This document shows positions 30,911 to 60,537 of a stretch of 64,000 nt of DNA, piece after piece. Position 1 is the stretch's first letter; each line of letters starts with the position of its first letter. Source of the stretch: a bacterium. Its GTDB lineage: Bacteria > Patescibacteriota > Minisyncoccia > Phycocordibacterales > UBA6899. Under the pieces are notes generated by a model. The model did not search any database. It was not told the DNA's origin and saw only the letters and a list, made by a program, of their open reading frames with translations. Made by a program: the position numbers and the translations under genes. The DNA lies in assembly GCA_021851895.1 (NCBI GenBank), contig JAJZQJ010000006.1, positions 13,861-77,860 on the forward strand, read 5' to 3'.

Positions 30911-30976
30911 ATATTATATTATATCAAGTCTTCAGAGGAATACAAAAAGCGCCGAAGCGCCTTATGTATTTTCCTT

Positions 30977-39200: not shown

Positions 39201-40101
39201 AAACTGACCCCGAGAGAACACTCATGAACTGCGCGGCCCCTTTGAAAATACTGGCACCCACTCCTGCAATGGGATCAGCGATCGCAAAGTATGCCGCAGC
39301 GAGCGCGTGCGCAACCCCCGTATCGGGAGCGGGCACACAAGGCAAGCTTGCATCTTTCCCCGTATCAACCTCAAGCGTCGCCAGCTCAGCCTTGATATCC
39401 TTCATCATTTGCGCACTCCCGTAATGGAGGTACGTATCGACGAAATTATGCCCGAGCGCATCTTTTGATGAACCTATTTCTGGAAAATCAACATTCGGTG
39501 GTGCTATAGCACCCACGCTCCCGACGAGGCCAGCAATGACCTTGTCGTTTTTTGAGAGAATATATCGTGCATTCGGAGCGGACATCTGTGCAGGCGAGGC
39601 GACGTTATACATCGTCATACTACTCGTCCCGATACCCCCTTCGCGGGTCGCGAGCCAATCGTAGATCGTATTAGCATAAAAATTACCCTGCGAGTGCGGC
39701 ACAAAGAGAATCCTCCCCTCTTTAACTTCATCATGCATCGCGCTGATCATCTCTTCTGCATCATAATCAAGCCCCATCGCATGTTGTGCCTGATCGAAGG
39801 TCTTCTGAATGACTGAAGTTAGACTGTCCCCAATGCCTGCGATATGAGATGGGTTGAAAGCATAATATGTTTTCACAATTTCACCCTGGAAAGTATCTGG
39901 GACAATTTTCTTTAACTCTCTTGCGCCATGAGCAGCATCTGATTCACTATTTAATACCCCATTAATATAAATTACTGAGTACCCATTTTTAAAACACTTA
40001 TTAGTCACTTCTGTTACGCCGAAGAAATATCCATAACCCGGGCTTGGAAAAACTAACACGACCAAAGTGGTCGCCAAAATTACTATTCTCTTCATAATCA
40101 C
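36244..40101 (-). CDS. Giant secreted protein (1285 aa): lipase-like alpha/beta-hydrolase domain, two lamin-tail (LTD) domains, and Ser/Thr/Gly-rich repeats
   Basis: Signal peptide; VPHSQGN nucleophile-elbow-like motif; two ITEYYIG..GESSW...L..W.L....E..FPFP segments matching the LTD pattern; repeated SSTSTPPIDxGGxVxGTSTATST units. Confidence 0.7.
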   Translation of the reverse strand: MIMKRIVILATTLVVLVFPSPGYGYFFGVTEVTNKCFKNGYSVIYINGVLNSESDAAHGARELKKIVPDTFQGEIVKTYYAFNPSHIAGIGDSLTSVIQKTFDQAQHAMGLDYDAEEMISAMHDEVKEGRILFVPHSQGNFYANTIYDWLATREGGIGTSSMTMYNVASPAQMSAPNARYILSKNDKVIAGLVGSVGAIAPPNVDFPEIGSSKDALGHNFVDTYLHYGSAQMMKDIKAELATLEVDTGKDASLPCVPAPDTGVAHALAAAYFAIADPIAGVGASIFKGAAQFMSVLSGSVFSSAPQPMEELKGTRDLPDLKKEAPVTYPGFKPAVVLPVVQQDAPPVVKETTLPKKKPLKAAPAVDPDAEYKTALLERIALLKRMLKAESTLEKQVIASSVIRRSGSLPTARAHALEEASTTPIIVEQGGFTIEDNLPQSQESASIIPTSGQLLITEYYIGKDGESSWVELMNTTDKWLDMRNAEFIEDGEHYPFPLTGIPPKRFVVLSSDGTKSHAILQSEAPYRFIEGLSSRSRSSGEFVILANHSLVDRAPYGGAYCANAYALRRSCERMITIAPGDNPSYWVRARALDTPTQYENASTIGYANQSWKYNIYEGRRIAGVYPNEIIPRGSDAVYVTGEVTVQSGEEWMVGNDRSWVLALPDAAIFGGNAQTVIHVYGTLGIWKTGSISTNKQFANYTSESNRPLIETVPHIVVHEGGVFVRDPYTYLTAPVIVRGGVVRVNTIASRMRLESGKLFLTYFDDGTSPAEIPSCSTYRDRTMLLEWLGGKVYRIGVDCGPAIPPTGQDEGQQGGPDDPFGVLAMQDAEDCHVYYAARDFVDCNEYYGLPPEFIDPPPEAIPPVESTTTPEIDDEMSTSTATSTDDVPPVEDSQGDAVGTTTPADGSASSTEELPPPEDSGSGSSATTTESLSLIDSSSTSTATSTPVEDGSGSSTSTPPIDNGGLVAGTSTATSTPGEEGPPSSTSTPPIDGGGIVTGTSTATSTASGEDGSATTTESVFCYDGPLYYDGITDEELNATCGHGWAPRPELFPVTSGGWNPLDGRMQITEYYIGAAGESSWFKVSNMMGSAAIDLKLTDVSIAGVRIPFPVLSIPAREYVLIASDGLTAQAVPLVSQNGGVETRAEYIGFVLPEDIESSGTIRFFYTTRPGLPEEDIEIFDYERGVCPGIISSIGSCVLERPYLVGNYEGDAGYVPWSMPSTSEPSMSNVSSPESSDEAPSADNVVIENLSSDNSTTTPDVIVEEIGTSTSVDIVAGDGDATSTAP

Positions 40102-42156: not shown

Positions 42157-42786
42157 TTAGAAAAGATTTAACTTATTCAATACAACAAGATGAGGGTAGT
42201 CTACAATATCGCGGACAAACTTATCATACACCCCGAATCGATATTCAAACTCCGCAGACTCCATGAGCGCATACGAGAGCTCCTTCCCTACTTCTGCCTC
42301 AAGCTTCTTGAGTTCGCGCTCGATCGCTGCACGCTTCAGTTTATCACCAACGATGAGTACATCGACACGAGAGGTCGGCTCATCGATGAAGATACCTGCA
42401 ACAATGATGAGTTTGAAGTGTCCACACCCCTTGAAGCGGGCTGCGATGTCTTCCTTGCCCATTGCGATCTCGGTGACGAGACCACGAAGTGAAGCAAGGA
42501 ATGGGAATGATGGATCGAGGCCATATCCTGTGAACTTCTTTTTCTTGAGTTCGGTCTCTGCGCTCACCTTGGCCCGTGATGACTTTGGCACGAGCTTCAC
42601 CGCCTCGCGCTCTTTAACAAGTGCAATATCACGGAGAAGACGTACCTCTTTGCGTGCAACATCGATCGAGGTTCGTGCGCGTTGAGCGACGTCGGCGATC
42701 TCGTAGATCTCTTCACTGTTCATGAGGAAAAGGCGCATGACGCGGACGCGTGCCGCTGAGCCGAATAGTTTCGCGAGGGTATCCAT
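42157..42786 (-). CDS. Conserved hypothetical protein with a possible N-terminal HTH
   Basis: 209 aa from MDTLAKLFG; no catalytic motif recognised. Confidence 0.45.
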   Translation of the reverse strand: MDTLAKLFGSAARVRVMRLFLMNSEEIYEIADVAQRARTSIDVARKEVRLLRDIALVKEREAVKLVPKSSRAKVSAETELKKKKFTGYGLDPSFPFLASLRGLVTEIAMGKEDIAARFKGCGHFKLIIVAGIFIDEPTSRVDVLIVGDKLKRAAIERELKKLEAEVGKELSYALMESAEFEYRFGVYDKFVRDIVDYPHLVVLNKLNLF

Positions 42787-42862: not shown

Positions 42863-42975
42863 GCACAAAAGACAAGACTATGCTCAGGCCACCAGGAAGT
42901 GCCTGTAGACGGCGAAAAAATGCGAAACGCGAGCACCGGACGGCGCTCGCGTTTCTACACAATCATTCCTTTTAA

Positions 42976-45027
42976 TTAATTGGTGATGAAGAGGTTTGAA
43001 GACTGGAAGTCGCCTTCTGGAGTACCCGCGATCTGTGCGGTCGCTGCTCCATAGGCACCACTCGTCGTATAGCCGACAGAGTTTACCTGGAGACGATACT
43101 GGCCTGCTGCAGTCGGATCATAGGTCACGACGACCTCGATCGTTGCTGACTCACCATCTGCGATACGGACGTAATTACCATCACGTGTACCACCGGAGAT
43201 GAGGGCTACAGACTTCGTTGTCGCACCTGACGACACGACGTTGCCATTTCCATCCTCCATGCTGTACACAACACCCGTTGTGCTCGTTGCTGAATCGATG
43301 GTGAATGGCACCCAGATATCATTACCTGATGCAGTCACACGAATCTGCATGTGGTACTCACCATAACTTGCTGATGGGTTATATGAGTTTTGCACTGCAT
43401 TCGCATATGAGCTTACGCGAGCGATATTGAGGCCCGTCGAGCGGAAAGTCTGCGTGCGACCTGTTGCTGAACCTGAGAATGCAGTGATGTTATCACCATT
43501 CTGATCCTGTGCATTTACCGAGGCGTAAGAGACGGTCATCGAGCTTCCTTCTGGGAATGATGCAGTGCCGATCTTCAACATGCGCGCAACGACATCGAAG
43601 GTTGCAGTGTTGTCCTGATCGATCGTTGCGAGATCATCGAGGTTAAATGTGAGTACACCACCTGAGACCGCTGTTGCGTCTGCGGTTGCAAGCACATTGC
43701 CATCACGAAGGAGCTGAAACTCGCTTGCCTGATTTGCGATCGCCGCACCCGAACTTGAAACATTCACGCGAACCTGATCGAACTGTGTACGTGTTCCCTC
43801 TGGCTTCAAGCGGAACTCGAGCATCGTCACCTTGTCGCCTGAACCACTATCAGAGACGAATACCGTGCGCTCATCAGGATTGTTTGCACCAGTATAGATG
43901 CGCACCTTTACGTCGCCTGAGGTTGAGAGCTTGTCGACGTATACTCCTGAATTTGAGACGCTTGAACCATCAGAGAAGGTGTAGCCGGTTGCATCGGTGA
44001 AACGGATGCTATCAGCACGCACAGTCCATGGACTTCCGCTTCCGGCAATTGCTGAATCGATGTATGGGACACCAATAGCGCGCACGTAGAATACCGTCTG
44101 GCCAGATGAGCCCATGCGTACGATCGCATTATCGAGCGCGACTGCCTTCGAGTACTGACCGGAGCCATCGCGATAGAAATCACTTGCGGAGACACGTCCG
44201 ACCTGTGAACCATTAGCATAGATCTCGAACGCGTCGAAGTAGCGCGTGAGGTTGTTGTTATTTGAACCGTTGTAATTCAAAGTGAGGCGAAGATTCGTCA
44301 CACGGACATCGGACCCGTCTGCGCGTACCTTGAAACCAAGTACGTACTTCCCTGATCCCGTCACAACGTTGTCTTCAACATCCGCAGAATAGCTATTTAC
44401 GGAAATCGAGCCTGCGCTGCCATTCAATCCTGAGTTGTTTGTATATCCCCCGTTGTTGTAGTTCGACGATGTGTTTGTATTCGTCACGACCGTCGTCGGA
44501 GTAACTGAAGATGGGATATCAGTGCTTGCACCAAGAACGACACCACCTGTTGGGACGCAGAGCTGATGCAATTGTGCGCGAGTCGCTACACCAACGATAC
44601 CTGTACCGTAGGAAAGACCCATAGGCGCAAGCACATCGGCTGCATACTTATTCTGAAAACGAATGACTGCAGCACGAGTCAATGGACCAAAATAGTCCGT
44701 CTCTGCACCGGGAGCACCAACTCCGTAGCCTGCAACCTGCGTATCTGCAGACTGATTAAGGACACGCTGGAGCTCGACGACCTCGGGGTCATACATGCCA
44801 AGCGAAAGCTCTTTGGTGAATGTGCACGATGTGCCAACATTTGCATTTGCATTATTGTAGGCGATCACTGCATTCCCACCATTCTGCGAAAGCTGCAACT
44901 GCTGCAACTGTGCAATGAGGGCGTTGATCTGTGCTTGTAATTCGTCAGTAGTCACCGCAGAAGCCATTGCGGGTACCAAGAGTACAAGCATGAGCAACCC
45001 GGCGAATTTTGTAATCATATTTTTCAT
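42976..45027 (-). CDS. Surface protein paralog A: signal peptide, peptidoglycan-binding (PG_binding_1-like) domain, beta-rich core, conserved FQSSNLFITN C-terminus
   Basis: Start at MKNMITKF. TTDELQAQINALIAQLQQ helix. Cys-bracketed G(M)xDxEVxxLQxxLN...YFGPxTxAAVIxFQNKY PG-binding domain. Shares its termini with paralogs B and C. Confidence 0.75.
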   Translation of the reverse strand: MKNMITKFAGLLMLVLLVPAMASAVTTDELQAQINALIAQLQQLQLSQNGGNAVIAYNNANANVGTSCTFTKELSLGMYDPEVVELQRVLNQSADTQVAGYGVGAPGAETDYFGPLTRAAVIRFQNKYAADVLAPMGLSYGTGIVGVATRAQLHQLCVPTGGVVLGASTDIPSSVTPTTVVTNTNTSSNYNNGGYTNNSGLNGSAGSISVNSYSADVEDNVVTGSGKYVLGFKVRADGSDVRVTNLRLTLNYNGSNNNNLTRYFDAFEIYANGSQVGRVSASDFYRDGSGQYSKAVALDNAIVRMGSSGQTVFYVRAIGVPYIDSAIAGSGSPWTVRADSIRFTDATGYTFSDGSSVSNSGVYVDKLSTSGDVKVRIYTGANNPDERTVFVSDSGSGDKVTMLEFRLKPEGTRTQFDQVRVNVSSSGAAIANQASEFQLLRDGNVLATADATAVSGGVLTFNLDDLATIDQDNTATFDVVARMLKIGTASFPEGSSMTVSYASVNAQDQNGDNITAFSGSATGRTQTFRSTGLNIARVSSYANAVQNSYNPSASYGEYHMQIRVTASGNDIWVPFTIDSATSTTGVVYSMEDGNGNVVSSGATTKSVALISGGTRDGNYVRIADGESATIEVVVTYDPTAAGQYRLQVNSVGYTTSGAYGAATAQIAGTPEGDFQSSNLFITN

Positions 45028-45183
45028 AATATTTTGAGTTTTTTGACACCGAAGGCCAACAGGCCAAGGGCGCAAATGGGTGTTTGGTAATCATGGTTCT
45101 ACCACAACCCCAACTGAGAAACAAGCAAAGCACGGCCCTGTGACAAGGTTTTTACCTTGACACCACGATTCCCTCCCTGCCTT

Positions 45184-45209
45184 TTTAAAGGACAAAACTG
45201 TCCTTTAAA
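45184..45209. promoter_or_regulatory. Perfect palindrome TTTAAAGGACA-aaac-TGTCCTTTAAA in the paralog A upstream region; a further half-site TTTGTCCTTTAGT at 45271-45283
   Basis: Seen in the sequence; the 13-mer is identical to 52088-52100. Confidence 0.55.
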
Positions 45210-45384
45210 AAGGACGCTCACTAACATGCGCTATACCTAGCTTTCTGGAGATACATGAATTCCCTTCATCTTTGTCCTTTAGTTTCGTGCACATTTGCAA
45301 TTATCTTCAGAACACACATTATATATATTGGCAAGTATTCTATACACCATGCGCATACAGACAAGGCTTCCCCTCACAACAAAA

Positions 45385-45409
45385 AACTTCGCCGAAGCGA
45401 AGTTTTTTG
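45385..45409. terminator. Terminator of paralog B (aacttcgc cgaa gcgaagtt, flanked by A5 and T6)
   Basis: Seen in the sequence. Confidence 0.65.
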
Positions 45410-45437
45410 TCTTGAACGACTTACCGAATACTCTGCA

Positions 45438-47438
45438 TTAATTCGTAATGAAGAGATTCGATGTCTGGAAGTCAGTGTCAGGAGTTGCTGCGATCGATGC
45501 AGTTGCTGCACCAGTTGCGCCAGCGGTTGTGTATCCGACTGAGCCAACCTGCAAACGGAACTGACCAGCTGCAGCAGCGTCGTAAGTCACAACGATATCA
45601 AGTGTTGCGGACTCACCATCTGCGATCTTCACATAGTTACCATCGCGGATTCCGCCAGAGACGAGTGCGACCGAAGCCGTAGTCGTACCTGTGGTTGATG
45701 CGATCGTTGCACCATTTGAGTCCTCGATCGTGTATGAGATACCGGTCGTTGAACTTGCATTATCAATCGTAAATGGTACCCAGATATCATCACCAGAAGC
45801 GGTGACCTTTACCTGCATGTCGAATGTACCGAAGCTTGCTGATGGCGTGTTCGAGTTCGTTGTCGCACTTGCCGTCGAGCTTACCTTGGTTACATTAAGA
45901 CCAGTTGCACGGAAGGTCTGTGTCTTTCCGGTTGCTGAACCATAGAACTTCGATGTTGGGATCACATCACCGTTGACGTCCTGAGCGTTGATACCATAGG
46001 TTGCGATCGTAACTGATGAGGTTGCACCCTGCGGGAACGTCGCAGTAGCGATCTTCTGCATCTTACCCACGATCTGGTAGGTGACCGTATCATCCTGGTT
46101 CACATACTCGAGATTATCGAGATTGAATGTTGCAAGACCAGTTGCTGCGGTAAACTCTGAAGTATTTGTTGGATCAACCGTTGCAAGGGTTGAACCATTC
46201 TTCACGAGCTGGAACTCGCTGAACATCTGGCTCGTCGAGGTTGAGCTGGTTGTCGTTGCTTTCAACTGATCAAATGAGATCTTCGTACCCTCTGCCTTGA
46301 TGCGGAACTCGTTCATGACGACCTTGTCGCCTGAATTGTCCTGTGAAACAAAGACGGTGCGCTCGTCTGGATTTGCTGAGCTTGATGAGAAGCGAACCTT
46401 GACATCAGATGATGAAGCGAGCTTACTGACCGTAATACCTGAATAGGTCACACCACTTGCTGTTGAAGAAAGAGTGACGCCAGTTGCATCCTGGTAACGA
46501 ATTTCGTTAAGGGTTGCGGTCCAAAGTGCTGCAAGATTTGCAGTATCAATGGTCTGCGCACCAATAGCCTTCACTGCGAAGGTGACCTGGTTTGCAGTAC
46601 CCATGCGTACGATCGTATTTGCGTTAAGCGCAATGGTCTTTGAGTAGTGACCAGCAGAATCACGGTTGAAATCACCCGCCATTGCTGAACCTACCTTTGA
46701 ACCATTCGCATAAATATCAAGTTCCTGGAAATAGCGATCGAGGTAGTTCGAGACACTTGAATTGTCCGTCATTGCAAGCGAAATCTTTACATGAGAGACA
46801 TTGATATCTGAACCATCTGCCTTGACCTTAAAGCCGAGAACGGTCTGCGCTGCACCAGTGACGACGTTCGTGTCGTTATCTGAGCTGTAGTTGCTGATAT
46901 CTGCTGAACCAGCACCACCATTAAGACCAGAAACACTTGTACCCGTGGTACCCGTCGTGCCGGTTGTTCCGGTCGTTGTACCTGGAGTGGTTGTCGTAGG
47001 TACTGCTGCACAAAGTGCATTGATCTTTGCGCGAGTCATTGCCCCGACCAAGCCGCTACCCATTGAGAGACCCACTGGAGCGAGCACCTCAGATGCGTAC
47101 TTGTTCTGGAACTTGATGACTGCAGCCTTTGTTGCGGGTCCGAAGTACATCGTCTCATTCCCCATTGAGCCAGGACCTGATGCTGCGACCTCGGTCGCCA
47201 TGTCCTGATTGAGGAACTTCTGGAGATTCATCACCTCCGCGTCCGACATACCCTGCTTGAGTGTCTTGGTGAAGACCGATGAGCAAGATGCGGTTGCTGC
47301 CGGCTTTGCTGCTGCGAGTTGTGCCATAAGCGCATTGATCTGCGCCTGGAGCTCCTCGATGGTCGCTGCTGATGCTACCACTGGGAGGAGCACCGAAGCG
47401 AGGGCAAGGCCGACGAACTTTGTATACTTATTCGTCAT
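45438..47438 (-). CDS. Surface protein paralog B (666 aa): same architecture, C-terminus TDFQTSNLFITN
   Basis: N-terminus MTNKYTKFVGLALASVLLPVVASAATIEELQAQINALMAQL; PG-binding domain; Thr/Gly linker. Confidence 0.75.
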   Translation of the reverse strand: MTNKYTKFVGLALASVLLPVVASAATIEELQAQINALMAQLAAAKPAATASCSSVFTKTLKQGMSDAEVMNLQKFLNQDMATEVAASGPGSMGNETMYFGPATKAAVIKFQNKYASEVLAPVGLSMGSGLVGAMTRAKINALCAAVPTTTTPGTTTGTTGTTGTTGTSVSGLNGGAGSADISNYSSDNDTNVVTGAAQTVLGFKVKADGSDINVSHVKISLAMTDNSSVSNYLDRYFQELDIYANGSKVGSAMAGDFNRDSAGHYSKTIALNANTIVRMGTANQVTFAVKAIGAQTIDTANLAALWTATLNEIRYQDATGVTLSSTASGVTYSGITVSKLASSSDVKVRFSSSSANPDERTVFVSQDNSGDKVVMNEFRIKAEGTKISFDQLKATTTSSTSTSQMFSEFQLVKNGSTLATVDPTNTSEFTAATGLATFNLDNLEYVNQDDTVTYQIVGKMQKIATATFPQGATSSVTIATYGINAQDVNGDVIPTSKFYGSATGKTQTFRATGLNVTKVSSTASATTNSNTPSASFGTFDMQVKVTASGDDIWVPFTIDNASSTTGISYTIEDSNGATIASTTGTTTASVALVSGGIRDGNYVKIADGESATLDIVVTYDAAAAGQFRLQVGSVGYTTAGATGAATASIAATPDTDFQTSNLFITN

Positions 47439-47880
47439 ATGAATTTAAATGAAATAATCAACTTGTTCCGTTTTCGCTTGGACGCCATACGAATAGAACA
47501 CTCGTATTCCGTACCTCGCTCGGCGGAATAAATCATGTAGTCATCATGCGATGTCTACGAGAGTTCACTACTGTTATAAATAATGAAGCTCATAAATCAC
47601 GGTTTGAAGTTTGTGCGTACCATCCCCTCCGCAAGAAGTGACAATACGCAGCTGGCCCGTATATAAGACATGGATCCGCAAGCGTTCCCTGCATATATAC
47701 GTACCGATCGATCACGATCAGCATCCCAGAAAGTGCGGTGGCTACCCATCTTCCCATGCAACCCTGATCGACTGCTTCGCTTTCCTCTATGAGGCATCCA
47801 CAGTGCGTACACCACAGATGCTCCATCGCAGAAACTTTTCGCACAAACATACAAAGACGAAAAACTGCTCACGAAAGCTT
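47439..47880. repeat. About 440-nt non-coding upstream block of paralog B, duplicated at 50319-50767 with about 85-90% identity; contains a conserved leader hairpin at 47487-47507
   Basis: Aligned by eye. Shared segments aaataatcaacttgttccgttttcgct..., ataaatcacggtttgaagtttgtgc...ccgcaagaagtgacaatac..., and gcagaaacttttcgcacaaacatacaaagacgaaaaactgctcacgaaagct. The ORFs called inside it (47590-48018) are judged spurious. Confidence 0.7.
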
Positions 47881-48130
47881 TCTCCTCACACACAAGCTAC
47901 CGCTCGATCGCTCGGGCAGTACCTATCTTGCACGAACCCCTGGAGTAGAGGACCGTGTGCGATAGACATCCTGTCAGACGTCTTCACTTGCATAACAATG
48001 CCGTACTACGTTTTGTGACAGGAATAGCATAATTATATAGTCGATAACAATATCGGCAATAAAAAGCATCCACACAATGTCCTATACGAATGGTTAGGGC
48101 ATAAAGGACAGGGGTGCCTTGTTCAATTCA

Positions 48131-48262
48131 AGGGAATAGGGAAAAGGGAAAAGCGTATAGGGTAAATGCCACTAGTAAGAAAAAACGCGAGCACAGTAGG
48201 TGCTCGTGTTTTTTGTATTCTGTTTTTCTCTTTTCCCTATACCCTTTTCCCTTTTCCCTAGC
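48131..48262. mobile_element. MITE-like mini-element: imperfect TIRs about 30 bp long (agggaatagggaaaagggaaaagcgtataggg / ccctatacccttttcccttttccct) around a terminator-type hairpin
   Basis: The TIRs are reverse complements with a few mismatches; same repeat family as 52219-52736, 55118-55349 and 62138-62175. Confidence 0.55.
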
Positions 48263-48286
48263 ATATCCTCCTCTTCCTAAAAGCAA

Positions 48287-48308
48287 AAACCCGCCGAAGC
48301 GGGTTTTT
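48287..48308. terminator. Terminator of paralog C (aaacccgc cgaa gcgggttt)
   Basis: Seen in the sequence. Confidence 0.65.
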
Positions 48309-48347
48309 GTCTGTAGACGATCAGAGATCGTTTCTACATCAGGAACA

Positions 48348-50318
48348 TTAGTTCGTGATGAAGAGGTTTGATGACTGGAAGTCTGACTCTGGTGCTGCAG
48401 TGATCGAGAGGCTTGCTCCGGTTGCTGCATCAGTGTTGTTGTAACCAACTGAACCGATCTGGAGGCGGTACTGGCCAGCTGCTGATGGGTCGTAAGTTAC
48501 GACAACCTCGAGCGTTGCTGACTCACCGTCTGCGATCTTCACCGTGTTGCCATCGCGAGTACCACCTGAAATGAGTGCTACTGATGCGGTGTTCGTACCT
48601 GCTGCAGTTACGTCAGTGTTGTTTGAATCCTCAACAGTGAAACGTACACCTGCTGCGCCGGTTGAGCTTGCGGTGAATGGAACCCATACATCATTGCCTG
48701 ATGCGGTTACCTTAACATCGTAGGTGAAGGTACCGAAGCTTGCTGATGGTGTGTTTGAGTTCGTGGTTGCAGCTACATTTGAGCTGACCTTGGTTACGTT
48801 AAGACCAGTTGCAAGGAAGGTCTGCTGGCGGCCATCTGCTGAGCCATAGAACTTCGATGATGGGATAACGTCGCCGTTTACGTCCTGAGCGTTGATGCTC
48901 TTGAACGAGATGGTTGCGGTCTGGCCTGCAACGAAGGTTGCGGTACCGATCTTCTGCATCTTTGCAACGACCTGGAAGGTCTGGGTCTCGTCCTGGTTAA
49001 CAGTTACGAGGTTGTCGATGTTGAAGTATGCAACACCTGCTGAAAGCTCTGAGCTTGAAGTGTCGACAGTGTCGATGACTGAACCATTCTGGACGAGCTG
49101 GAGCTCGCTGATCATGTTTGAAGTCGTCGTTGAAGTCGTAACGTTCATCTGGAGCTGGTCAAATGACACCTTGGTGCCCTCTGCCTTTACCTTGAACTCA
49201 TTCATGACAACCTTGTCGCCTGATGAAGTATCAGAAACGAAGTTGGTCTTCACGTCTGGGTTTGCAGCACCTGCTGAGAAGCGAACCTTAACATCAGATG
49301 ATGTTGAGAGCTTGTTAACAGCAACGCCGTTGATCGTGTAGGTCGTTGTGTCTGAGAGCACTGCACCGGTTGCATCTGCGAAGCGGATGTTACCCTCGGT
49401 GATGTCCCACTTAGCACCTGCGTTATCAGAATCAATCGATGAAGCACCGACTGCCTTGATGGTGAAGGTGGTCTGGTTTGAAGCACCCATCTTCACGATA
49501 ACCTTGTTGTCAAGAGCGATCGTCTTTGAGTACTGACCAGCTGAATCACGGTTGAAGTCGCTTGCATTTGCTGAAGCAACCTTTGAACCATTTGCGTATA
49601 CGTCGATCCTATCGAAGTAACGGTTAAGGTAGTTTGAAGCATTTGGGTATGCTGATGCGTTGCTTGCCTCGAATGCGAGAGACACCTTGAGGTGTGAAAC
49701 TGCAACGTCAGAACCGTCTGCCTTTACCTTGAATCCTGCAACAGTCTGTGCAACACCCGTCACGACATTCGTGTCGTTGTCTGAAGTGTAGCTGGTGACC
49801 GTTACTGAACCTGCCGTACCATTAAGACCAGTTACTGGAGCTGGAGTTGTGGTTGGGGTGGTTGATGGAGTAGAAACAACTGCACCTGAGCAGAGAGCAT
49901 TGATCTTTGCGCGGGTTGATGCACCTACGAAACCGGTACCTGCTGAGAGGCCTGCTGGAGCGAGCACCTCAGATGCGTACTTGTTCTGGAACTTGATGAC
50001 TGCAGCCTTCGTTGCTGGGCCGAAGTACATCGTTTCGTTGCCCTTTGAACCAACGCCTGATGCTGCTACCTGAGTATCAACATCTGAGTTAAGTGCCTTC
50101 TGGAGGTCCATAACCTCAGCGTCTGACATACCTGCCTTGAGTGACTTTGAGAGTACTACTGAGCAAGATGCTGTTGTTGCCGGCTTTGCTGCTGCGAGCT
50201 GAGCCATGAGCGCATTGATCTGCGCCTGGAGCTCCTCGATGGTCGCTGCTGATGCTACTACTGGGAGGAGCACTGCTGCGAGAGCAAGACCGACGAACTT
50301 TGAATTCTTATTCGTCAT
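48348..50318 (-). CDS. Surface protein paralog C (about 656 aa from MTNKNSKF): same architecture, C-terminus SDFQSSNLFITN
   Basis: N-terminus MTNKNSKFVGLALAAVLLPVVASAATIEELQAQINALMAQLAAAKPA; PG-binding domain; the 37-codon N-terminal ORF extension is rejected. Confidence 0.75.
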   Translation of the reverse strand: MTNKNSKFVGLALAAVLLPVVASAATIEELQAQINALMAQLAAAKPATTASCSVVLSKSLKAGMSDAEVMDLQKALNSDVDTQVAASGVGSKGNETMYFGPATKAAVIKFQNKYASEVLAPAGLSAGTGFVGASTRAKINALCSGAVVSTPSTTPTTTPAPVTGLNGTAGSVTVTSYTSDNDTNVVTGVAQTVAGFKVKADGSDVAVSHLKVSLAFEASNASAYPNASNYLNRYFDRIDVYANGSKVASANASDFNRDSAGQYSKTIALDNKVIVKMGASNQTTFTIKAVGASSIDSDNAGAKWDITEGNIRFADATGAVLSDTTTYTINGVAVNKLSTSSDVKVRFSAGAANPDVKTNFVSDTSSGDKVVMNEFKVKAEGTKVSFDQLQMNVTTSTTTSNMISELQLVQNGSVIDTVDTSSSELSAGVAYFNIDNLVTVNQDETQTFQVVAKMQKIGTATFVAGQTATISFKSINAQDVNGDVIPSSKFYGSADGRQQTFLATGLNVTKVSSNVAATTNSNTPSASFGTFTYDVKVTASGNDVWVPFTASSTGAAGVRFTVEDSNNTDVTAAGTNTASVALISGGTRDGNTVKIADGESATLEVVVTYDPSAAGQYRLQIGSVGYNNTDAATGASLSITAAPESDFQSSNLFITN

Positions 50319-50767
50319 AGTGAATGAAATGAAATAATGAAACTTGTTCCGTTTTCGCTCGGACGCTATACGAATGAAACATTCGTATGTCGTACCCTCG
50401 CTCGACGGAATAAATTTTGTATCTGTCATTAACGACTGATACGGTAAACGATTACTTAACAGTAAAAGTTTTATAAATCACGGTTTGAAGTTTGTGCATA
50501 CTATCCCCTCCGCAAGAAGTGACAATACACAGCAGGCCCGTACACTCCGCTAGGATCCGCAAGCGTTCCTAATTTTGTATACGCACCAATCATCTACCAG
50601 CAATGTCCTGTGAGAAGTTTGAGTGGCTGCTCGCCCCTCTCCGTTCACTACCAACAGACGACTTGCTTCGCTTTCTTCGATGGAAAACGCGATGTCACCA
50701 CCACGCCTTTCATTGCAGAAACTTTTCGCACAAACATACAAAGACGAAAAACTGCTCACGAAAGCTG
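50319..50767. repeat. Second copy of the duplicated upstream non-coding block, with a perfect leader hairpin atacgaatg-aaa-cattcgtat at 50368-50388
   Basis: Offset of 2880-2887 nt from copy B, the same as the gene-start offset. Confidence 0.7.
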
Positions 50768-50991
50768 TTGCCTCCAGCCCCAGAACCCAGCGGCACCCAT
50801 AATACTCACTTGGTGTGTGTATGTGTGCTTAGAATTTGTGGCACGCTCATTCCCGCCCGAAGGCGTGGAGATGAATGAGCGTAACGCAATCTTATTACAG
50901 TTGCGACACTAAGTCAACAAACGAAATCATTTTTTGTGACAATTTAATGGCTCTATAACTGGATATTCGACACATCGCCTCGTCTTAGAGG

Positions 50992-51059
50992 TGTCCTAAA
51001 TATGTCCTATATGCATGCGCAAATTATTTCAATTTAGGATATACATGTCCTATAGGACA
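50992..51059. promoter_or_regulatory. Cluster of TGTCCTA half-sites ending in the perfect palindrome TGTCCT-AT-AGGACA (51046-51059), between the regulator gene and the paralog array
   Basis: Seen in the sequence. Confidence 0.5.
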
Positions 51060-51088
51060 GACCCTTTTCTCTGGTGCCGCACCGATAT

Positions 51089-51116
51089 GAAAAGGCCCAA
51101 TGTTTAGGGCCTTTTC
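51089..51116. terminator. Terminator of the regulator gene (gaaaaggccc aatgtttag ggccttttc)
   Basis: Seen in the sequence. Confidence 0.6.
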
Positions 51117-51125
51117 ATATAATTC

Positions 51126-51147
51126 GATGTCCGTTATAAAGGACATC
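51126..51147. promoter_or_regulatory. Palindrome GATGTCC-N8-GGACATC overlapping the regulator stop codon
   Basis: Seen in the sequence. Confidence 0.4.
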
Positions 51148-52030
51148 AGTGCAGCAAAGGAAGTCGCGCGATGCGGTAAGTCGACCAACGACGGTCACCC
51201 TCCTTAATAAGGATACCCTCTTCGACCATTGCGGAGAGTTCACGCTGAATGGTTTTCTCGGAAACATTTTGGAGTTTTGCCGAAATGTCCTTTATCGAAC
51301 AATTCTGTTTCGTGGCAATGACACCGGTAATGATCTCTCGGCGTGAGTTTCGTGTCTCCTCACTGCGTGCCTGGCGCTCTTGCACATCTGCATCAACGAG
51401 CGTTATGTGTGGTGCAACCGCTGAACGGATACCACCTTCGGGGACCATAGTGATCGGCTTCGCCTTGATCACCTCCTTCTCCTTTATAGGGAGAGGAGCA
51501 ATCGGCTTAGGAATGTCACTCATCTGTAGGCGCGGCGCGCTGAGCGGCGTGCTGACGGGAATCTTCTTTTCAATGGGCGGTGCGACAGGCTTTGCTTCGG
51601 CTGTCTCTGCTTTGACCGCTACTGCTTCCGTGGTCGCTGCAATCGTAGCGAGAGAGGCATCCGCCTGCTCTTCCCCACCCCGCGTCGGCGCTGCGATCTC
51701 AAGGACATCGAAGAAGTCCGAGGTGAACAACGGTGCGGGGGTCGGCGCAGCACTACCTCGTGCCGCAAGGAGTACCTCGAGCGCACGGAGCTCATCCTCA
51801 AGGACATCAGCATTCATCGGGCTGACTGCACGTGCGATACGTGCGATCGAGAGAATGTCGAGCGTCTGCTCGATACCGCGAAGAATGCTTGCAGCATCGG
51901 ATTCGAGGAGCGCTACTGCGCAGTTGCGAAGGTGCCACTTTAGGGGCTCCTTCTCGGACATGATGTCCGTGACCATATAGAGAGCTGTTGCAAGCTTCAG
52001 TGCCTTGCGTGAACTGTACGTATCTGACAT
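51146..52030 (-). CDS. Putative transcriptional regulator with a C-terminal winged HTH, an Ala/Pro-rich linker and an uncharacterised N-terminal domain
   Basis: C-terminal IKDISAKLQNVSEKTIQRELSAMVEEGILIKEGDRRWSTYRI looks like a DeoR/GntR-type recognition helix plus wing. Confidence 0.5.
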   Translation of the reverse strand: MSDTYSSRKALKLATALYMVTDIMSEKEPLKWHLRNCAVALLESDAASILRGIEQTLDILSIARIARAVSPMNADVLEDELRALEVLLAARGSAAPTPAPLFTSDFFDVLEIAAPTRGGEEQADASLATIAATTEAVAVKAETAEAKPVAPPIEKKIPVSTPLSAPRLQMSDIPKPIAPLPIKEKEVIKAKPITMVPEGGIRSAVAPHITLVDADVQERQARSEETRNSRREIITGVIATKQNCSIKDISAKLQNVSEKTIQRELSAMVEEGILIKEGDRRWSTYRIARLPLLH

Positions 52031-52042
52031 ATGTCCTTTAAA
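52025..52042. promoter_or_regulatory. 10-nt palindrome GACATATGTC overlapping the regulator ATG, followed by TGTCCTTTAAAA; upstream half-site TTTGTCCTTTAGT at 52088-52100
   Basis: Seen in the sequence. Confidence 0.5.
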
Positions 52043-52218
52043 ATAGTTGATGGATTATTAACCGACAATCAGGTTGGAACACAACCTTTTTGTCCTTTAG
52101 TAGTGACGTACATTATACTAGATAATTTGAAAATGTCAATAGTTTCCCTATCTCATATCAAAGTCACTACTCTTGTGTCCTTCATACTACTCATCTGGGA
52201 CAATACGTCAAATACCAA

Positions 52219-52736
52219 GGGAAAAGCGTATAGGGAAAAGGTAATAGGGTTAATGCATTAAAGACATTTGATGCATAGCCGTTCTACTATATTTATAGAT
52301 AGTGTGCTATATTATAGCGATGGTGTACATTAAGGACTACAAGGATCTTATTGTATGGAAGAAGTCAATGGTCCTCACAAAGACCATATACCTGCTCTGT
52401 AAACACATTCCGACCTCTGAAAAATTCAGCCTAATTTCTCAGATGCAGCGATCTGCAGTTTCTGTGCCCTCAAACATTGCGGAAGGCTACGGGCGCACGA
52501 CGCGCAAAGATTATGCGCACTTCCTGCATATTGCACGAGGCTCAGCGGCCGAGCTAGAAACCCAAATCTTACTCACGAAAGACCTCTATCCGAATATCGA
52601 TACTACGCTAGCTCTCAACCAAGTAATGGAGGTTCGTAAGATTCTTGTCGTACTTATTCAAAAACTTGAGGCAAAATGAAAATGCAGCACGAGTATGCTG
52701 CATTTCCCTATTCCCTTTTCCCTATACGCTTTTCCC
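52219..52736. mobile_element. TIR-flanked cassette (518 nt; TIRs gggaaaagcgtatagggaaaaggtaatagggttaatgc / gcatttccctattcccttttccctatacgcttttccc) carrying one small gene
   Basis: The 37-nt ends are reverse complements apart from about 4 mismatches; same family as 48131-48262. Confidence 0.6.
52320..52679 (+). CDS. Four-helix-bundle protein (23S rRNA intervening-sequence protein family)
   Basis: Signature VPSNIAEGYGR...KDYAHFLHIARGSAAELETQ; own hairpin terminator at 52679-52704. Confidence 0.65.
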   Translation: MVYIKDYKDLIVWKKSMVLTKTIYLLCKHIPTSEKFSLISQMQRSAVSVPSNIAEGYGRTTRKDYAHFLHIARGSAAELETQILLTKDLYPNIDTTLALNQVMEVRKILVVLIQKLEAK

Positions 52737-52744
52737 TTAAACTC

Positions 52745-55117: not shown

Positions 55118-55349
55118 GGGTATAGGTTATAGGGAATAGGGTATAGGGAAATGCAAAATGCAATGAATCAAGCCATAAATTCGACAGGAATAGCAATTTC
55201 ATATTAAATGCGTAAAGGACATCCTCTGTCCTTTTGCTTCTGAATTACCTACGACCTATGACCTATAACCTATTGCCTATCAAGCATATTTGAGCAAGAC
55301 CAACTCACCCGGACTCTTCTCTATACCCTATTCCCTATACGCTTTTCCC
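55118..55349. mobile_element. Third TIR-flanked mini-element (gggtataggttatagggaatagggtatagggaaatgc ... ctataccctattccctatacgcttttccc); it encloses the palindrome AAAGGACA-tcctc-TGTCCTTT (55214-55234) upstream of ftsK
   Basis: Seen in the sequence. Confidence 0.5.
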
Positions 55350-55431
55350 TTTCACTCTCCCTCCATTGACGTTGCCAGTCTACACTTTCGCGCTGAGCCC
55401 CCACCCTCCCTCTTATGCTATCATTATCCCC

Positions 55432-59899: not shown

Positions 59900-59962
59900 C
59901 TAAAAAAGAACACACTTTGTGTTCTTTTTTAGTTGATTGCGACCACCACATCGGATGTTATA

Positions 59963-60537
59963 CTATGTTAATGAAAGTAAGAGGCTTCACACTCATCGAA
60001 CTCCTTGTCGTCATTGCGATCATTGGCCTACTCTCAAGCGTCATTCTTGCTTCGCTCGGAACTGCCCGCGCGAAAGCACGCGATGCACAGCGCGTCGCAG
60101 GTGTGCGACAACTCATGAATAGTTTGGAGTTCTATTTTGATGTTAATGGAAAATTCCCACGCTCAGCAAGCTGTGGAGCGACCGTACCCAATACCGGCTG
60201 GTGTAATAGCTGGGAATCCCTAGATGCGAATGGCCACTGGATAAGAGATACAGGTACTCAAGATGTCCTTTCTCCATACATCAATAGGGACTCGATAGAC
60301 CCGGCGCCAAAGTTACCCGTCCTCGCGACATGGCTCACCGAGAATGGTGCATACTATTATTTCTCGAACAATCTCTCTCCTACATATAAAGATATGTACG
60401 TCATTGTATTCAAGCTTGAAAAACCTCCACATCCTATCGAATCCATCGACGGAGTCTATGACTGTCTCGGAAATGCATTTGACTACGGCAATACCTGGCA
60501 AGGAGTAGTATCGATAGGACGTAGCTGTACAAGATAA
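59963..60537 (+). CDS. Type IV pilin-like protein (orphan, outside the main pilus locus)
   Basis: [23 protein letters not shown] class III signal; terminator at 60560-60599 (18-bp arms). Confidence 0.7.

What the first reader, a model, noticed from the sequence alone, without database searches (positions are those of the whole stretch)
42976..52042. Regulator followed by three tandem paralogous PG-binding surface proteins, each with a duplicated long leader block: candidate phase- or variation-prone envelope / S-layer-like system
Three co-directional genes (42976-45027, 45438-47438, 48348-50318) encode 650-700-aa secreted proteins with near-identical N-termini: signal peptide, an AT(I/T)(E/D)ELQAQINAL helix, and a Cys-bracketed PG_binding_1-like domain. 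Their C-termini are near-identical (...QFRLQVGSVGYTT...(T/S/G)DFQ(T/S)SNLFITN). The roughly 450-aa beta-rich cores between these ends are strongly diverged. The tandem unit of about 2.88 kb includes a duplicated non-coding upstream block of about 440 nt (47439-47880 and 50319-50767). A wHTH regulator gene sits immediately upstream in the same orientation. This layout is typical of abundantly expressed, diversifying envelope proteins, but this domain combination with this C-terminal motif is not a family I recognise.
Basis: partly seen in the sequence, partly recalled or inferred. Interest (0 to 1): 0.7.

Follow-up and report, generated by a model that had tools for sequence, protein, structure and literature searches.

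The report
Triplicated wall-anchored surface protein genes
Three neighbouring genes of an ultra-small (Paceibacteria) bacterium encode versions of a cell-wall-anchored surface protein that is probably the cell's outer protein coat, and two of them are preceded by a previously undescribed folded RNA leader; nothing indicates a rapid-variation system.

Summary
Three co-directional minus-strand paralogs (683, 666 and 656 aa) follow a 294-aa winged-HTH gene.

The cores are not strongly diverged: they are 55-64% identical, like the rest of each protein. Every domain is under purifying selection, and the triplication predates the split from a related genome.

Each protein has a signal peptide, a helix, a genuine PG_binding_1 domain, a disordered Thr/Ser/Gly linker and three tandem ~160-aa beta-sandwich domains. 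There is no catalytic fold.

The family is large (at least 650 clusters) and uniform in length. Named hits are all Paceibacteria-type, and in every locus long enough to show it the gene lies in one conserved RecA-FtsK-regulator locus. In two distant genomes a Wzy_C/glycan cluster follows it. Similar PGBD proteins are among the top-expressed genes of cultured Paceibacteria.

Best reading: the major peptidoglycan-anchored, S-layer-like surface protein, kept as three separately transcribed isoforms.

New findings:
- The duplicated upstream block is a conserved structured RNA leader, supported by covariation and held-out validation. It is absent from Rfam and from gene 1.
- The regulator joins an Avd/23S-IVP-like four-helix bundle to a wHTH.

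There is no phase-variation machinery, only patchy gene conversion.

The parts
42976..45027 (-). g1: 683-aa paralog (most diverged copy; ortholog of the 695-aa gene of L001, 78% identity)
   Evidence: ORF; alignment; PG_binding_1 27.1 bits against a cut-off of 23; orthology
45438..47438 (-). g2: 666-aa paralog. Signal peptide residues 1-24, helix 27-43, PG_binding_1 bundle 55-145 (nt 47004-47276), disordered linker 147-167 (nt 46938-47000), three beta-sandwich domains 174-666 (nt 45441-46919)
48348..50318 (-). g3: 656-aa paralog. The ORF is open up to 50429, but the signal peptide starts at the ATG at 50318
   Evidence: the 693-aa annotated form is P0002
51146..52030 (-). Regulator: N-terminal four-helix bundle (residues 4-92, Avd/23S-IVP-like fold), ~120-residue disordered linker, long helix and winged HTH (214-287)
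50319..50882 (-). g3 leader (predicted 5' UTR, ~564 nt from the predicted start). Structured core 50476-50777
   Evidence: alignments A4/A5; RNAalifold; covariation statistics; strand test; single-sequence folds
47439..48025 (-). g2 leader (predicted 5' UTR, ~587 nt). Structured core 47595-47890
   Evidence: same as the g3 leader; CM hit of 125 bits
50711..50766 (-). Block A of the g3 leader (AGCUUUCGUGAGCAGUUUUUCGUCUUUGUAUGUUUGUGCGAAAAGUUUCUGC..), nearly invariant in 11 leaders
47824..47879 (-). Block A of the g2 leader
50476..50591 (-). Block B region of the g3 leader: helix 10, helix 11 (G-CUUG-C tetraloop hairpin), helix 12, and the 3' tail GCACAAACUUCAAACCGUGAUU
   Evidence: model R1, 134 bits; compensatory changes in held-out L012 and L014
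47595..47709 (-). Block B region of the g2 leader
   Evidence: R1, 125 bits
50341..50396 (-). Window-specific hairpin inserted just before the g3 start codon. It is absent from all related leaders
   Evidence: (D17, I6)
47460..47515 (-). The same inserted hairpin before the g2 start codon (88% identical to the g3 copy)
50889..50917 (-). Predicted g3 promoter TTGACT-17-TAAGAT. The TTGACT hexamer is aligned in the five g3-type leaders and the full motif also occurs in the divergent L014
50841..50887 (-). Stem-loop at the predicted 5' end of the g3 transcript. The stem sequence differs between genomes but pairing is kept
   Evidence: read; inference
48032..48059 (-). Predicted g2 promoter TTGCCG-16-TATAAT, conserved in g2-type leaders
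45337..45364 (-). Promoter-like site upstream of g1 (TTGTCT-16-TAGAAT)
   Evidence: weak evidence
52112..52139 (-). Perfect consensus promoter (TTGACA-16-TATAAT) upstream of the regulator gene
51128..51145 (-). Palindrome TGTCCTTTATAACGGACA, a candidate operator
   Evidence: half-site enrichment
51046..51059 (-). Palindrome TGTCCTATAGGACA, a candidate operator upstream of the g3 promoter
45200..45215 (-). Palindrome GTCCTTTAAAAAGGAC upstream of g1. A related TTGTCCT-type motif is aligned in w_g1, L1_c and L11
50932..50941 (-). TGTCACAAAA motif ~15-24 nt upstream of the -35. Also at 48011-48020 (g2) and as TGTCACAG at -118 of g1
51089..51114 (-). Intrinsic terminator of the regulator gene
   Evidence: read; coordinates
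48279..48308 (-). Intrinsic terminator of g3
45381..45408 (-). Intrinsic terminator of g2
42915..42955 (-). Intrinsic terminator of g1
42157..42786 (-). Conserved 209-aa neighbour (92% identical in L001; a gene of 205-209 aa occupies the same position in L004 and L011, homology not tested). No family match; relation to the system unknown

Best explanation
The locus encodes three isoforms of the main peptidoglycan-anchored surface protein of a Paceibacteria-type (Patescibacteria) cell, most likely its S-layer or an S-layer-like coat.

Shown:
- Each protein is exported by a Sec signal peptide.
- Each carries an N-terminal helix and a genuine PG_binding_1 three-helix bundle.
- A flexible Thr/Ser/Gly-rich linker follows, then three tandem, mutually homologous ~160-aa beta-sandwich domains. 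There is no catalytic domain.
- The three genes are ancient paralogs kept by purifying selection.
- Each has its own promoter-like site and terminator.
- g2 and g3 carry a conserved structured leader, with a core of ~300 nt inside a ~560-590-nt untranslated region. g1 lacks it.
- All three promoters share upstream TGTCC..GGACA and TGTCACA motifs.
- A co-conserved regulator with an Avd/IVP-like four-helix bundle and a wHTH sits upstream.

Inferred:
- The PG_binding_1 module ties the protein non-covalently to the cell's own wall, and the beta-sandwich array forms the exposed layer.
- The regulator binds the shared DNA motifs.
- The leader gives g2 and g3 a second, post-transcriptional control (mRNA stability or protein binding). 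The isoforms would then be expressed differentially, as with sap/eag in Bacillus anthracis, and not varied by recombination.
For: Architecture:
- AF2 mean pLDDT 87.5.
- The beta-core matches only Ig/cohesin-like arrays such as PrgB, the AgI/II C-domains and integrin legs.
- Internal repeats: D1/D2 97.9%, D2/D3 77%.

Composition: pI 4.6-4.9, 2 Cys. This matches the general S-layer properties listed in PMC3666127.

Family:
- 886 cluster representatives, 652 at E<=1e-10, nearly all 600-700 aa with the core in the same position.
- All named hits are Paceibacteria/Parcubacteria.

Fixed locus: RecA, FtsK, regulator, long gap, then the gene. Seen in L001 and L004-L006 and, with a 1119-aa protein carrying the same anchor, in L013.

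Glycan link: Wzy_C and glycan-synthesis genes lie directly downstream in L005 and L006.

Expression:
- PGBD proteins are among the five most expressed unknown genes in three Paceibacteria.
- One of them is 2079 nt with a signal peptide cleaved at 26-27 and log2 expression ~16, against 12.5 for an ATP synthase subunit.
- An apparent S-layer was seen by cryo-EM in Ca. Nealsonbacteria, which has three PGBD genes.
- No S-layer protein has been identified for this class.

Purifying selection. Old triplication.

Leader:
- 91.7% of cells paired, against 43-51% in slid controls.
- 33 doubly changed pairs, against 18.3+-2.7 in shuffles (0 of 500).
- 126 G.U cells against 15 A.C.
- The same architecture appears in eight single-sequence folds.
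- Held-out L012 and L014 keep the helices through compensatory changes.
Against: - No direct evidence of a lattice, of abundance in this organism, or of PG binding.
- The link to the highly expressed PMX proteins rests on size, signal peptide and domain description, not on a sequence comparison.
- The best structural matches of the core are adhesin stalks (PrgB, antigen I/II), which fits an adhesin equally well.
- No glycosylation cluster adjoins the genes in this window. The nearest glycan genes are ~28 kb away.
- Transcription starts are predicted from hexamers only.
- Block B also contains a sigma70-like TTGTCA-16-TAGTAT.
- Leader helices 5-9 and 13 could not be scored in the held-out sequence because of alignment gaps.
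- The structure was derived from the same alignment on which its covariation was counted.
Confidence: 0.55

Rival explanations
1. The proteins are host-attachment adhesins of an epibiotic cell, not a coat. The Ig-like array reaches out to the host surface, and the three paralogs give different host specificities.
For: The top Foldseek matches are adhesin stalks: PrgB, AgI/II C-domains and MSCRAMM-type proteins. Kuroda et al. proposed host attachment for PGBD proteins. The window carries two type IV pilus clusters typical of epibionts.
Against: - The known hosts of the expressing Paceibacteria are methanogenic archaea, which from general knowledge lack murein. The PGBD must then bind the cell's own wall.
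- The family is uniform in length and sits in a conserved housekeeping locus across deep divergence.
- Purifying selection acts on all domains.
- Extreme expression suits a structural coat better than a specificity factor.
- The two roles are not exclusive.
Confidence: 0.25
2. The three genes form a recombinational phase- or antigenic-variation system. One expressed copy would exchange with silent or alternative cassettes, as in Campylobacter fetus sap or Lactobacillus acidophilus slpA/slpB.
For: - Tandem paralogs with long shared 5' sequence.
- Excess of within-genome quartet sites: P 70 against X 26.
- The same ~70-nt hairpin insertion is present in both leaders of this genome only.
- Contigs of relatives often break inside the array.
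Against: - All copies are complete, co-directional and separately terminated, each with promoter-like sites.
- No inverted repeats flank a promoter, there is no recombinase gene in the locus, and there are no simple-sequence tracts.
- Copy order and orthology are stable since the split from L001, at dS ~0.7-1.6.
- dN/dS is 0.07-0.3.
- The leader quartet sites are cleanly orthologous, 38:5:2.
Confidence: 0.07
3. The conserved upstream blocks act as DNA (promoter, UP element and operator sites for the regulator) and not as a folded RNA.
For: - Block B contains TTGTCA-16-TAGTAT.
- Blocks A and B are almost invariant, as protein-binding DNA often is.
- TGTCAC occurs both in block B and next to the upstream promoter.
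Against: - Stems flanking invariant loops covary. Helix 11 shows GGA/UCC, AAA/UUU and AAG/CUU.
- In divergent L014 the hexamers are lost while helix 12 pairing is kept through A-U/G-C swaps.
- There is strong G.U asymmetry between strands.
- A conserved promoter lies upstream of block A.
- Variable hairpins keep their shape with different sequences.
Confidence: 0.15
4. The proteins are cell-wall enzymes (hydrolases or remodelling factors) that use the PG_binding_1 domain for targeting, as in most characterised proteins with this domain.
For: All solved relatives of the N-terminal domain belong to peptidases, transglycosylases, endolysins or L,D-transpeptidases. Kuroda et al. called them extracellular enzymes.
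Against: - No Pfam or NCBIfam catalytic family matches.
- The 490-residue remainder is three repeated beta-sandwiches.
Confidence: 0.03

Closest known systems
S-layer proteins of Gram-positive bacteria built as wall anchor plus beta-sandwich 'beads on a string' (Bacillus anthracis Sap/EA1, Geobacillus SbsB/SbsC)
   Same: - N-terminal wall-binding module, then a string of Ig-like domains.
- Acidic, Cys-poor, Thr/Ser/Ala/Val-rich.
- Adjacent paralogous genes, each with its own promoter (sap-eag, from my own knowledge).
- Several S-layer genes per strain, sequential or alternative expression, tandem promoters and stabilising 5' UTR structure are described for S-layer genes (PMC3666127).
   Different: - The anchor is PG_binding_1, not SLH (no SLH match).
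- There is no detectable sequence similarity.
- Lattice formation is unproven.
- The leader is far longer and more conserved than the S-layer 5' UTRs I know of.
Highly expressed PGBD proteins of Ca. Yanofskyibacterium and Minisyncoccus (Kuroda et al., mBio 2024, PMC10936435)
   Same: - Same bacterial class.
- N-terminal PGBD with a signal peptide.
- One member is 2079 nt (692 aa) with cleavage at 26-27.
- Similar predicted structures in three genomes, and top-rank expression.
   Different: - Homology to the window proteins was not tested by sequence.
- The authors read them as extracellular enzymes or host-attachment factors.
- They did not describe paralog arrays, the regulator or the leader.
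PG_binding_1 (PF01471) domains of wall enzymes (Streptomyces Zn DD-peptidase 1lbu, SleB/SleC, phage endolysins)
   Different: There is no catalytic partner domain. Here the domain is N-terminal to a structural beta-array, and in this lineage it is bracketed by a Cys pair present in only ~40-45% of the family.
S-layer glycoprotein genes followed by an S-layer glycosylation (slg) cluster with a Wzy_C-type oligosaccharyl transferase (Geobacillus sgsE/wsaB; my own knowledge)
   Same: In L005 and L006 the single family member is followed directly by Wzy_C, nucleotide-sugar epimerases/dehydratases, glycosyltransferases and methyltransferases. The proteins have a Thr/Ser-rich linker.
   Different: This arrangement is not present next to the genes in this window. 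Glycosylation was not tested.
Recombinational S-layer variation (Campylobacter fetus sap homologs; Lactobacillus acidophilus slpA/slpB inversion, PMC3666127)
   Same: Several paralogs with conserved 5' parts in one locus. Some gene conversion is detectable.
   Different: There is no invertible promoter segment, and no oppositely oriented or promoterless cassettes. The copies are stable and under purifying selection.
Avd of diversity-generating retroelements and the 23S rRNA intervening-sequence protein family (PF05635), compared with the regulator's N-terminal domain
   Different: - No significant profile similarity (hhalign E 0.068) and no Pfam hit.
- Here the bundle is fused through a ~120-residue disordered linker to a wHTH.
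- There is no reverse transcriptase anywhere in the window.

Membership tests
PG_binding_1 (PF01471) domain proteins | Three-helix-bundle peptidoglycan-binding domain recognised by the family model | tested here: met
   [not shown]
PGBD-targeted cell-wall hydrolases | A catalytic domain (peptidase, amidase, transglycosylase or L,D-transpeptidase) joined to the PGBD | tested here: not met
   [not shown]
S-layer proteins (functional class) | Self-assembles into a two-dimensional paracrystalline lattice covering the cell | not testable with these tools
   Needs cryo-ET or in-vitro assembly. Only microscopy reports of S-layers in some Patescibacteria exist.
S-layer proteins (functional class) | Among the most abundant or most highly expressed proteins of the cell | tested here: inconclusive
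   There are no data for this organism. A PGBD protein of matching size in Ca. Yanofskyibacterium has log2 expression ~16, but homology was not verified by sequence.
S-layer proteins (functional class) | Separate wall-anchoring and assembly regions; acidic, Cys-poor composition | tested here: met
   Anchor, linker and three beta-sandwiches. pI 4.6-4.9 with 2 Cys. General properties as listed in PMC3666127.
SLH-anchored S-layer proteins (Sap, EA1, SbsB) | S-layer homology (SLH) domains | tested here: not met
   No SLH match in Pfam at E<=0.1.
Sortase-anchored Gram-positive adhesins (MSCRAMM, antigen I/II, PrgB) | C-terminal LPXTG sorting signal with a hydrophobic stretch and charged tail | tested here: not met
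   All three proteins end ...DFQ(S/T)SNLFITN. The 54 family C-termini show no LPXTG. In the model the last residues form a strand (E662-664) at the end of the beta-rich core.
Trimeric autotransporter adhesins (a source's name for P0022; KEGG K21449 for the PMX protein) | YadA-type C-terminal membrane anchor, coiled-coil stalk and an outer membrane | tested here: not met
   No such Pfam domains. The model is an all-beta array with one short N-terminal helix.
Invertible or cassette-type S-layer variation systems | One promoter on an invertible segment, or promoterless cassettes in opposite orientation, with flanking inverted repeats | tested here: not met
   All copies are co-directional, with their own promoter-like sites and terminators. 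The inverted repeats in the region belong to an unrelated small element.
Diversity-generating retroelement targets | Reverse transcriptase gene plus a template/variable repeat pair with adenine-specific differences | tested here: not met
   No RT among the ~55 larger ORFs of the window that were scanned. All repeats are explained by paralogy.
Any Rfam family (for the leader) | Match to a curated covariance model | tested here: not met
   Only sub-threshold chance hits on terminators and the MITE-like hairpin. Nothing lies on blocks A or B.
DeoR-type winged-HTH regulators (for the 294-aa protein) | HTH_DeoR DNA-binding domain; classical DeoR proteins have it N-terminal to a sugar-phosphate sensor domain | tested here: inconclusive
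   The HTH is met: 22 bits against a cut-off of 21, 41 of 54 family members hit it, and the wHTH is seen in the model. However, it is C-terminal and there is no DeoR C-terminal sensor domain, so only the DNA-binding fold is shared.
Avd / 23S_rRNA_IVP (PF05635), for the regulator's N-domain | Four-helix bundle of this family, recognisable by the family profile | tested here: inconclusive
   [not shown]

The most novel reading that the evidence does not exclude
This family is the so far unidentified S-layer protein of Paceibacteria, the largest class of the candidate phyla radiation. It would be tied directly to peptidoglycan by a PG_binding_1 module, an anchoring mode not described for S-layers.

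Its isoforms would be switched by a new two-level circuit:
- a regulator that fuses an Avd-like, possibly RNA-binding, four-helix bundle to a wHTH
- a new class of large structured leader RNA, present on two of the three genes
Probability: 0.3. Interest if true: 0.8.

Novelty: new variant of a known kind. Interest (0 to 1): 0.62.

Why it matters
Patescibacteria make up a large share of bacterial diversity and live attached to other cells, yet the makeup of their envelope is almost unknown. A 2026 review reports S-layers only from micrographs.

This work provides:
- A concrete, widespread candidate for the Paceibacteria coat protein, with a confident model and defined domains. That makes the question directly testable by proteomics, cryo-ET of the cultured Minisyncoccus/Yanofskyibacterium systems, and PG-binding assays.
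- A testable regulatory pair: a conserved regulator and candidate DNA motifs.
- A new, well-supported structured RNA. Few cis-regulatory RNAs are known in these reduced genomes.
- A reusable signal peptide-helix-PGBD-linker module. It could serve as a marker for wall-attached surface proteins across the class, because it also heads a ~1100-aa family.

Tried and rejected
- Rfam scan of 42-53 kb at E<=1: only chance hits on terminators and a repeat hairpin.
- Sequence search of PDB with g2 alone: nothing significant.
- afdb50 fold search: library unavailable.
- Exact-match scans of genome and metagenome collections with a 21-mer of block B: only one locus each.
- CM search for block B in the distant loci L004-L006 and L013, and in the rest of the window: no hit. 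The leader is therefore specific to one clade.
- Generic GTCC-N(2-12)-GGAC pattern: not enriched in the window as a whole, 6 against 7.6 expected. Only the A/T-spaced copies and the 7-mer half-site cluster in the locus.
- The window-specific leader hairpin as a dispersed mobile repeat: no other copy in the window.
- Small ORFs inside the leader: frames are not conserved between copies.
- An 11-sequence MAFFT alignment of the leader: the variable region misaligns once short variants are added, so it was not used for statistics.
- Profile comparison of the regulator family with IVP proteins: not significant.
- Search for a reverse transcriptase or DGR, and for glycosylation genes next to the locus in the window: none.
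- dN/dS as a test for diversifying selection: only domain-scale averages were possible, and dS is near saturation for g1/L_c.

Full report
**1. The observation**

The window has three complete ORFs on the minus strand at 42976-45027 (g1, 683 aa), 45438-47438 (g2, 666 aa) and 48348-50318 (g3, 656 aa). The g3 ORF stays open up to 50429, but the signal peptide begins at 50318. A 294-aa ORF at 51146-52030 lies upstream in the same orientation.

The three proteins align over their whole length. Pairwise identities are 56% (g1/g2), 55% (g1/g3) and 68% (g2/g3). By segment, in the order g1/g2, g1/g3, g2/g3:
- N-terminal 160 columns: 56%, 55%, 83%
- Thr/Ser/Asn/Gly linker: 35%, 21%, 37%
- ~440-column core: 55%, 55%, 64%
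- last 63 columns: 76%, 70%, 68%

So the genes, the shared N-terminal features, the shared C-terminal ...DFQ(S/T)SNLFITN and the 2.88-kb g2/g3 period are real. The claimed contrast between conserved ends and strongly diverged cores is not. The upstream blocks of g2 and g3 are 74% identical over 461 nt, with sub-blocks at 88-94%. g1 has no such block.

**2. What the proteins are**

Pfam finds only PG_binding_1 (g1 27.1 bits against a cut-off of 23; g2 and g3 just below it). NCBIfam finds nothing.

A profile of 54 family members hits the PG-binding domain of the Streptomyces Zn DD-peptidase 1lbu at E 1e-8, along with other wall-enzyme PGBDs.

An AlphaFold2 model of g2 built on that alignment is confident (mean pLDDT 87.5; pTM 0.55, as expected for a flexible multi-domain chain). 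It shows:
- signal peptide, residues 1-24
- helix, 27-43
- helical bundle, 55-145
- disordered linker, 147-167
- all-beta structure, 174-666

Profile-profile comparison shows the core to be three tandem copies of one ~160-aa domain: D1/D2 probability 97.9%, E 4e-13; D2/D3 77%, E 2e-5.

The mature proteins are acidic (pI 4.6-4.9), have only the two PGBD-bracketing Cys, and are rich in Thr, Ala, Ser, Val and Gly. The Cys pair is present in only ~40-45% of family members. The C-terminal motif generalises only to a loose P..[DN][FY].[ST]....I pattern with no LPXTG. In the model the last residues form a strand (E662-664) at the end of the beta-rich core, so this is not a sorting signal.

**3. The family and its locus**

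A word-indexed search found 231 relatives. All named ones come from Paceibacteria/Parcubacteria metagenome bins. They fall into two groups: full-length relatives of 650-700 aa, and proteins of ~1100 aa that share only the N-terminal ~20%. P0042 shows the same signal peptide, helix, Cys-bracketed PGBD and Thr-rich linker in front of a longer beta-array.

An exhaustive profile search with the core alone found 886 cluster representatives (652 at E<=1e-10). Nearly all are 600-700 aa, with the core running from about residue 150 to the C-terminus.

Genomic context is strikingly constant:
- L001, from a related groundwater genome, has RecA, a Glucodextran_B-like gene, FtsK, a 23S_rRNA_IVP gene, the regulator, then three paralogs (662, 658 and 695 aa) and the same 208-aa downstream gene.
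- L002 and L003 show two paralogs before the contig ends.
- The distant single-copy members in L004, L005 and L006 (27-40% identity) still lie after FtsK and a regulator homolog, with a 630-730-nt gap.
- In L013 the same locus holds a 1119-aa protein with the shared anchor, after a 1.6-kb gap. The 650-aa and 1100-aa families are therefore positional equivalents.
- In L005 and L006 the gene is followed at once by a Wzy_C protein and a set of nucleotide-sugar, glycosyltransferase and methyltransferase genes. From my own knowledge, this is the layout of S-layer glycoprotein genes with their glycosylation clusters in Geobacillus.
- In this window the nearest glycan genes are ~28 kb away.

**4. Age and mode of evolution**

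Orthologs between the window and L001 are 78% (g1), 76% (g2) and 72% (g3) identical. Paralogs within a genome are 51-72% identical. The triplication therefore predates the split.

Nei-Gojobori dN/dS is 0.07-0.3 in every folded domain and 0.4-0.5 in the linker, with dS of 0.7-1.6. This is purifying selection.

A quartet count on g2, g3 and their L001 counterparts gives 117 sites for orthology, 70 for within-genome grouping and 26 for the crossed topology. The two wrong topologies should be about equal without exchange, so the excess points to patchy gene conversion (codons 1-50, 251-300 and 501-600). Genome-specific codon bias is an alternative explanation for part of it.

There are no simple-sequence tracts, no invertible segments and no reverse transcriptase in the window.

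**5. The leader**

This is the main new result. Upstream of g2-type and g3-type genes, two blocks are nearly invariant in 11 leaders from nine loci, although the adjacent proteins are only 55-60% identical:
- Block A: 50711-50766 and 47824-47879
- Block B region: 50476-50591 and 47595-47709

RNAalifold on eight leaders predicts 91 pairs in 13 helices. Counted against controls:
- 91.7% of cells pair, against 43-51% when partners are slid.
- 33 pairs show changes on both sides, against 18.3+-2.7 in shuffles (0 of 500 reach it) and 11-16 in slid versions.

On the opposite strand only 76.2% of cells would pair, and there are 126 G.U cells against 15 A.C. The RNA is therefore the sense strand of the genes.

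Folded one at a time, eight leaders give the same layout from different sequences: a hairpin after block A, a single-stranded GGAAAGCGAAGCA, and a long hairpin capped by GCAGCCAC.

A covariance model of block B finds only the training sites in the window and first loci. In loci fetched later it finds three more instances:
- L012. Helices 1-4 and 10-12 keep 44 of 48 pairs, with four compensatory changes. These include G-C in place of A-U next to the invariant AACGCUUGCGGA loop.
- L015, a close relative.
- L014, a divergent version, where helix 11 is absent. Helices 10 and 12 are kept through A-U/G-C swaps, while the sigma70-like hexamers inside block B are lost.

Reading the L014 leader shows the whole architecture again:
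- a TTGACT-17-TAGCAT promoter
- a 5' stem-loop
- block A
- a new hairpin with a GUAA loop
- the GAAAGC motif
- the CAGCCA-capped hairpin
- block B

The predicted long-range pairing between the block A loop (UUUG..GUUUGUGC) and the block B tail (GCACAAAC..CAAA) is invariant in the close set. In L014 it becomes UUUUG/CAAAA.

Conserved promoter-like elements lie upstream of block A: TTGACT-17-TA(A/G)GAT in g3-type leaders and TTGCC-16-TATAAT in g2-type. No terminator separates block B from the start codon. The element is therefore best read as a structured 5' untranslated leader of ~560-590 nt. It has no Rfam match.

Both leaders of this genome, and no other, carry a ~70-nt hairpin inserted just before the start codon.

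Helices 5-9 and 13 rest on the training alignment and the single-sequence folds only.

**6. The regulator and DNA motifs**

The 294-aa protein has homologs upstream of the surface-protein gene in 7 of the first 8 related loci, down to 27% identity, and in L013-L015. L003 has a transposase-like gene in its place. The family is large, with 2111 hits, and 41 of 54 members match HTH_DeoR.

Its model shows:
- a confident four-helix bundle, residues 4-92
- a ~120-residue disordered linker
- a long helix plus winged HTH, 214-287

Upstream of the promoters lie palindromes of the type TGTCC-(A/T-rich)-GGACA, at 51128-51145, 51046-51059 and 45200-45215. The half-site ATGTCCT/AGGACAT occurs 19 times in the window. 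Nine of these lie in the 4.8 kb from 47200 to 52031. A TGTCACA motif lies just upstream of the -35 in all g2/g3-type leaders and at -118 of g1-type genes. That these are the regulator's sites is inference.

Each gene has an intrinsic terminator: 42915-42955, 45381-45408, 48279-48308, and 51089-51114 for the regulator.

**7. Interpretation**

The anatomy is that of a Gram-positive S-layer protein: wall anchor, linker and beta-sandwich array, with acidic Cys-poor composition. Several adjacent paralogs with their own promoters, and a structured leader, also fit what is described for S-layer genes (PMC3666127).

Indirect support for abundance comes from Kuroda et al. PGBD proteins with similar predicted structures are among the five most expressed genes of unknown function in three Paceibacteria. 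One of them is 2079 nt with a signal peptide cleaved at 26-27 and log2 expression near 16.

Ca. Nealsonbacteria shows an apparent S-layer by cryo-EM and has three PGBD genes. A 2026 review still lists S-layers in this phylum only from microscopy. SLH proteins are reported for Absconditabacteria only.

I therefore read the locus as three isoforms of the major peptidoglycan-anchored, S-layer-like surface protein (confidence 0.55). They share transcriptional control through the regulator, and g2 and g3 have an extra RNA-level control.

The main rival is a host-adhesion role (0.25), which is not exclusive of the first. The variation-cassette reading (0.07) and the enzyme reading (0.03) are poorly supported. 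For the leader, a purely DNA-level function is the rival (0.15).

**8. Novelty**

The domain parts are known, and highly expressed PGBD proteins of Paceibacteria have been noticed before. The following are not described in the literature I could search:
- an S-layer-type protein anchored by PG_binding_1
- the conserved locus with its bundle-wHTH regulator
- the modular anchor shared with a ~1100-aa family
- the large structured leader

I rate this a new variant of a known kind, with a new RNA element attached.

Noticed in passing
window 48126-48264; 52217-52249 with 52706-52738; 55130-55148 with 55333-55351: Three inverted-repeat pairs of AAGGGAAAAGCGTATAGGG (7 matches against 0.01 expected). 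One pair flanks the stand-alone 23S_rRNA_IVP gene at 52302-52679 (Pfam E 1.7e-33). One is an empty hairpin between the g3 terminator and the g2 promoter. One lies between FtsK and the next gene. This looks like a small MITE-like element, with one copy carrying the IVP gene.
   Followed up: partly
[not shown]
   Followed up: partly
window 42157-42786 (-): A 209-aa protein just downstream of g1 is 92% identical in L001, far more conserved than its neighbours. A gene of 205-209 aa occupies the same position in L004 and L011; their homology was not tested. It has no Pfam or NCBIfam match.
   Followed up: partly
L013 8633-11992; P0033-P0120 (about 1100 aa): A second family of ~1100-aa proteins carries the same signal peptide-helix-PGBD-Thr-linker module in front of a longer beta-array. 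In L013 it occupies the same RecA-FtsK-regulator locus after a 1.6-kb gap that also holds a TTGACT-17-TAnnAT site ~545 nt upstream.
   Followed up: partly
L002, L003, L007, L008, L009, L014, L015 (contig ends): Assemblies of related genomes repeatedly break inside or just after the first paralog. This suggests repeat-induced or strain-level assembly problems at this locus. L003 has a transposase-like gene where the regulator should be.
   Followed up: no
window 36244-40101 (-) and 22014-26099 (-): Two very large secreted proteins. One is 1285 aa with a Lamin Tail Domain just below Pfam's cut-off (33.4 bits against 34.3) and long Ser/Thr-rich low-complexity stretches. The other is 1361 aa with a purple-acid-phosphatase N-domain-like (FN3-type) match.
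   Followed up: no
window 355-5027 and 27224-31675: Two separate type IV pilus gene sets (PilB/PilT-like T2SSE ATPases, PilC-like T2SSF, N_methyl pseudopilins), plus another pseudopilin at 59917-60537.
   Followed up: no
L004 9429-12647: The FtsH homolog of this related genome carries an intein with a LAGLIDADG endonuclease domain.
   Followed up: no
L007 (CAYLUP010000017.1): The record is titled 'Candidatus Saccharibacteria'. Its FtsK-IVP-regulator-leader-paralog locus is that of the Paceibacteria-type relatives, so the taxonomic label may be loose.
   Followed up: no
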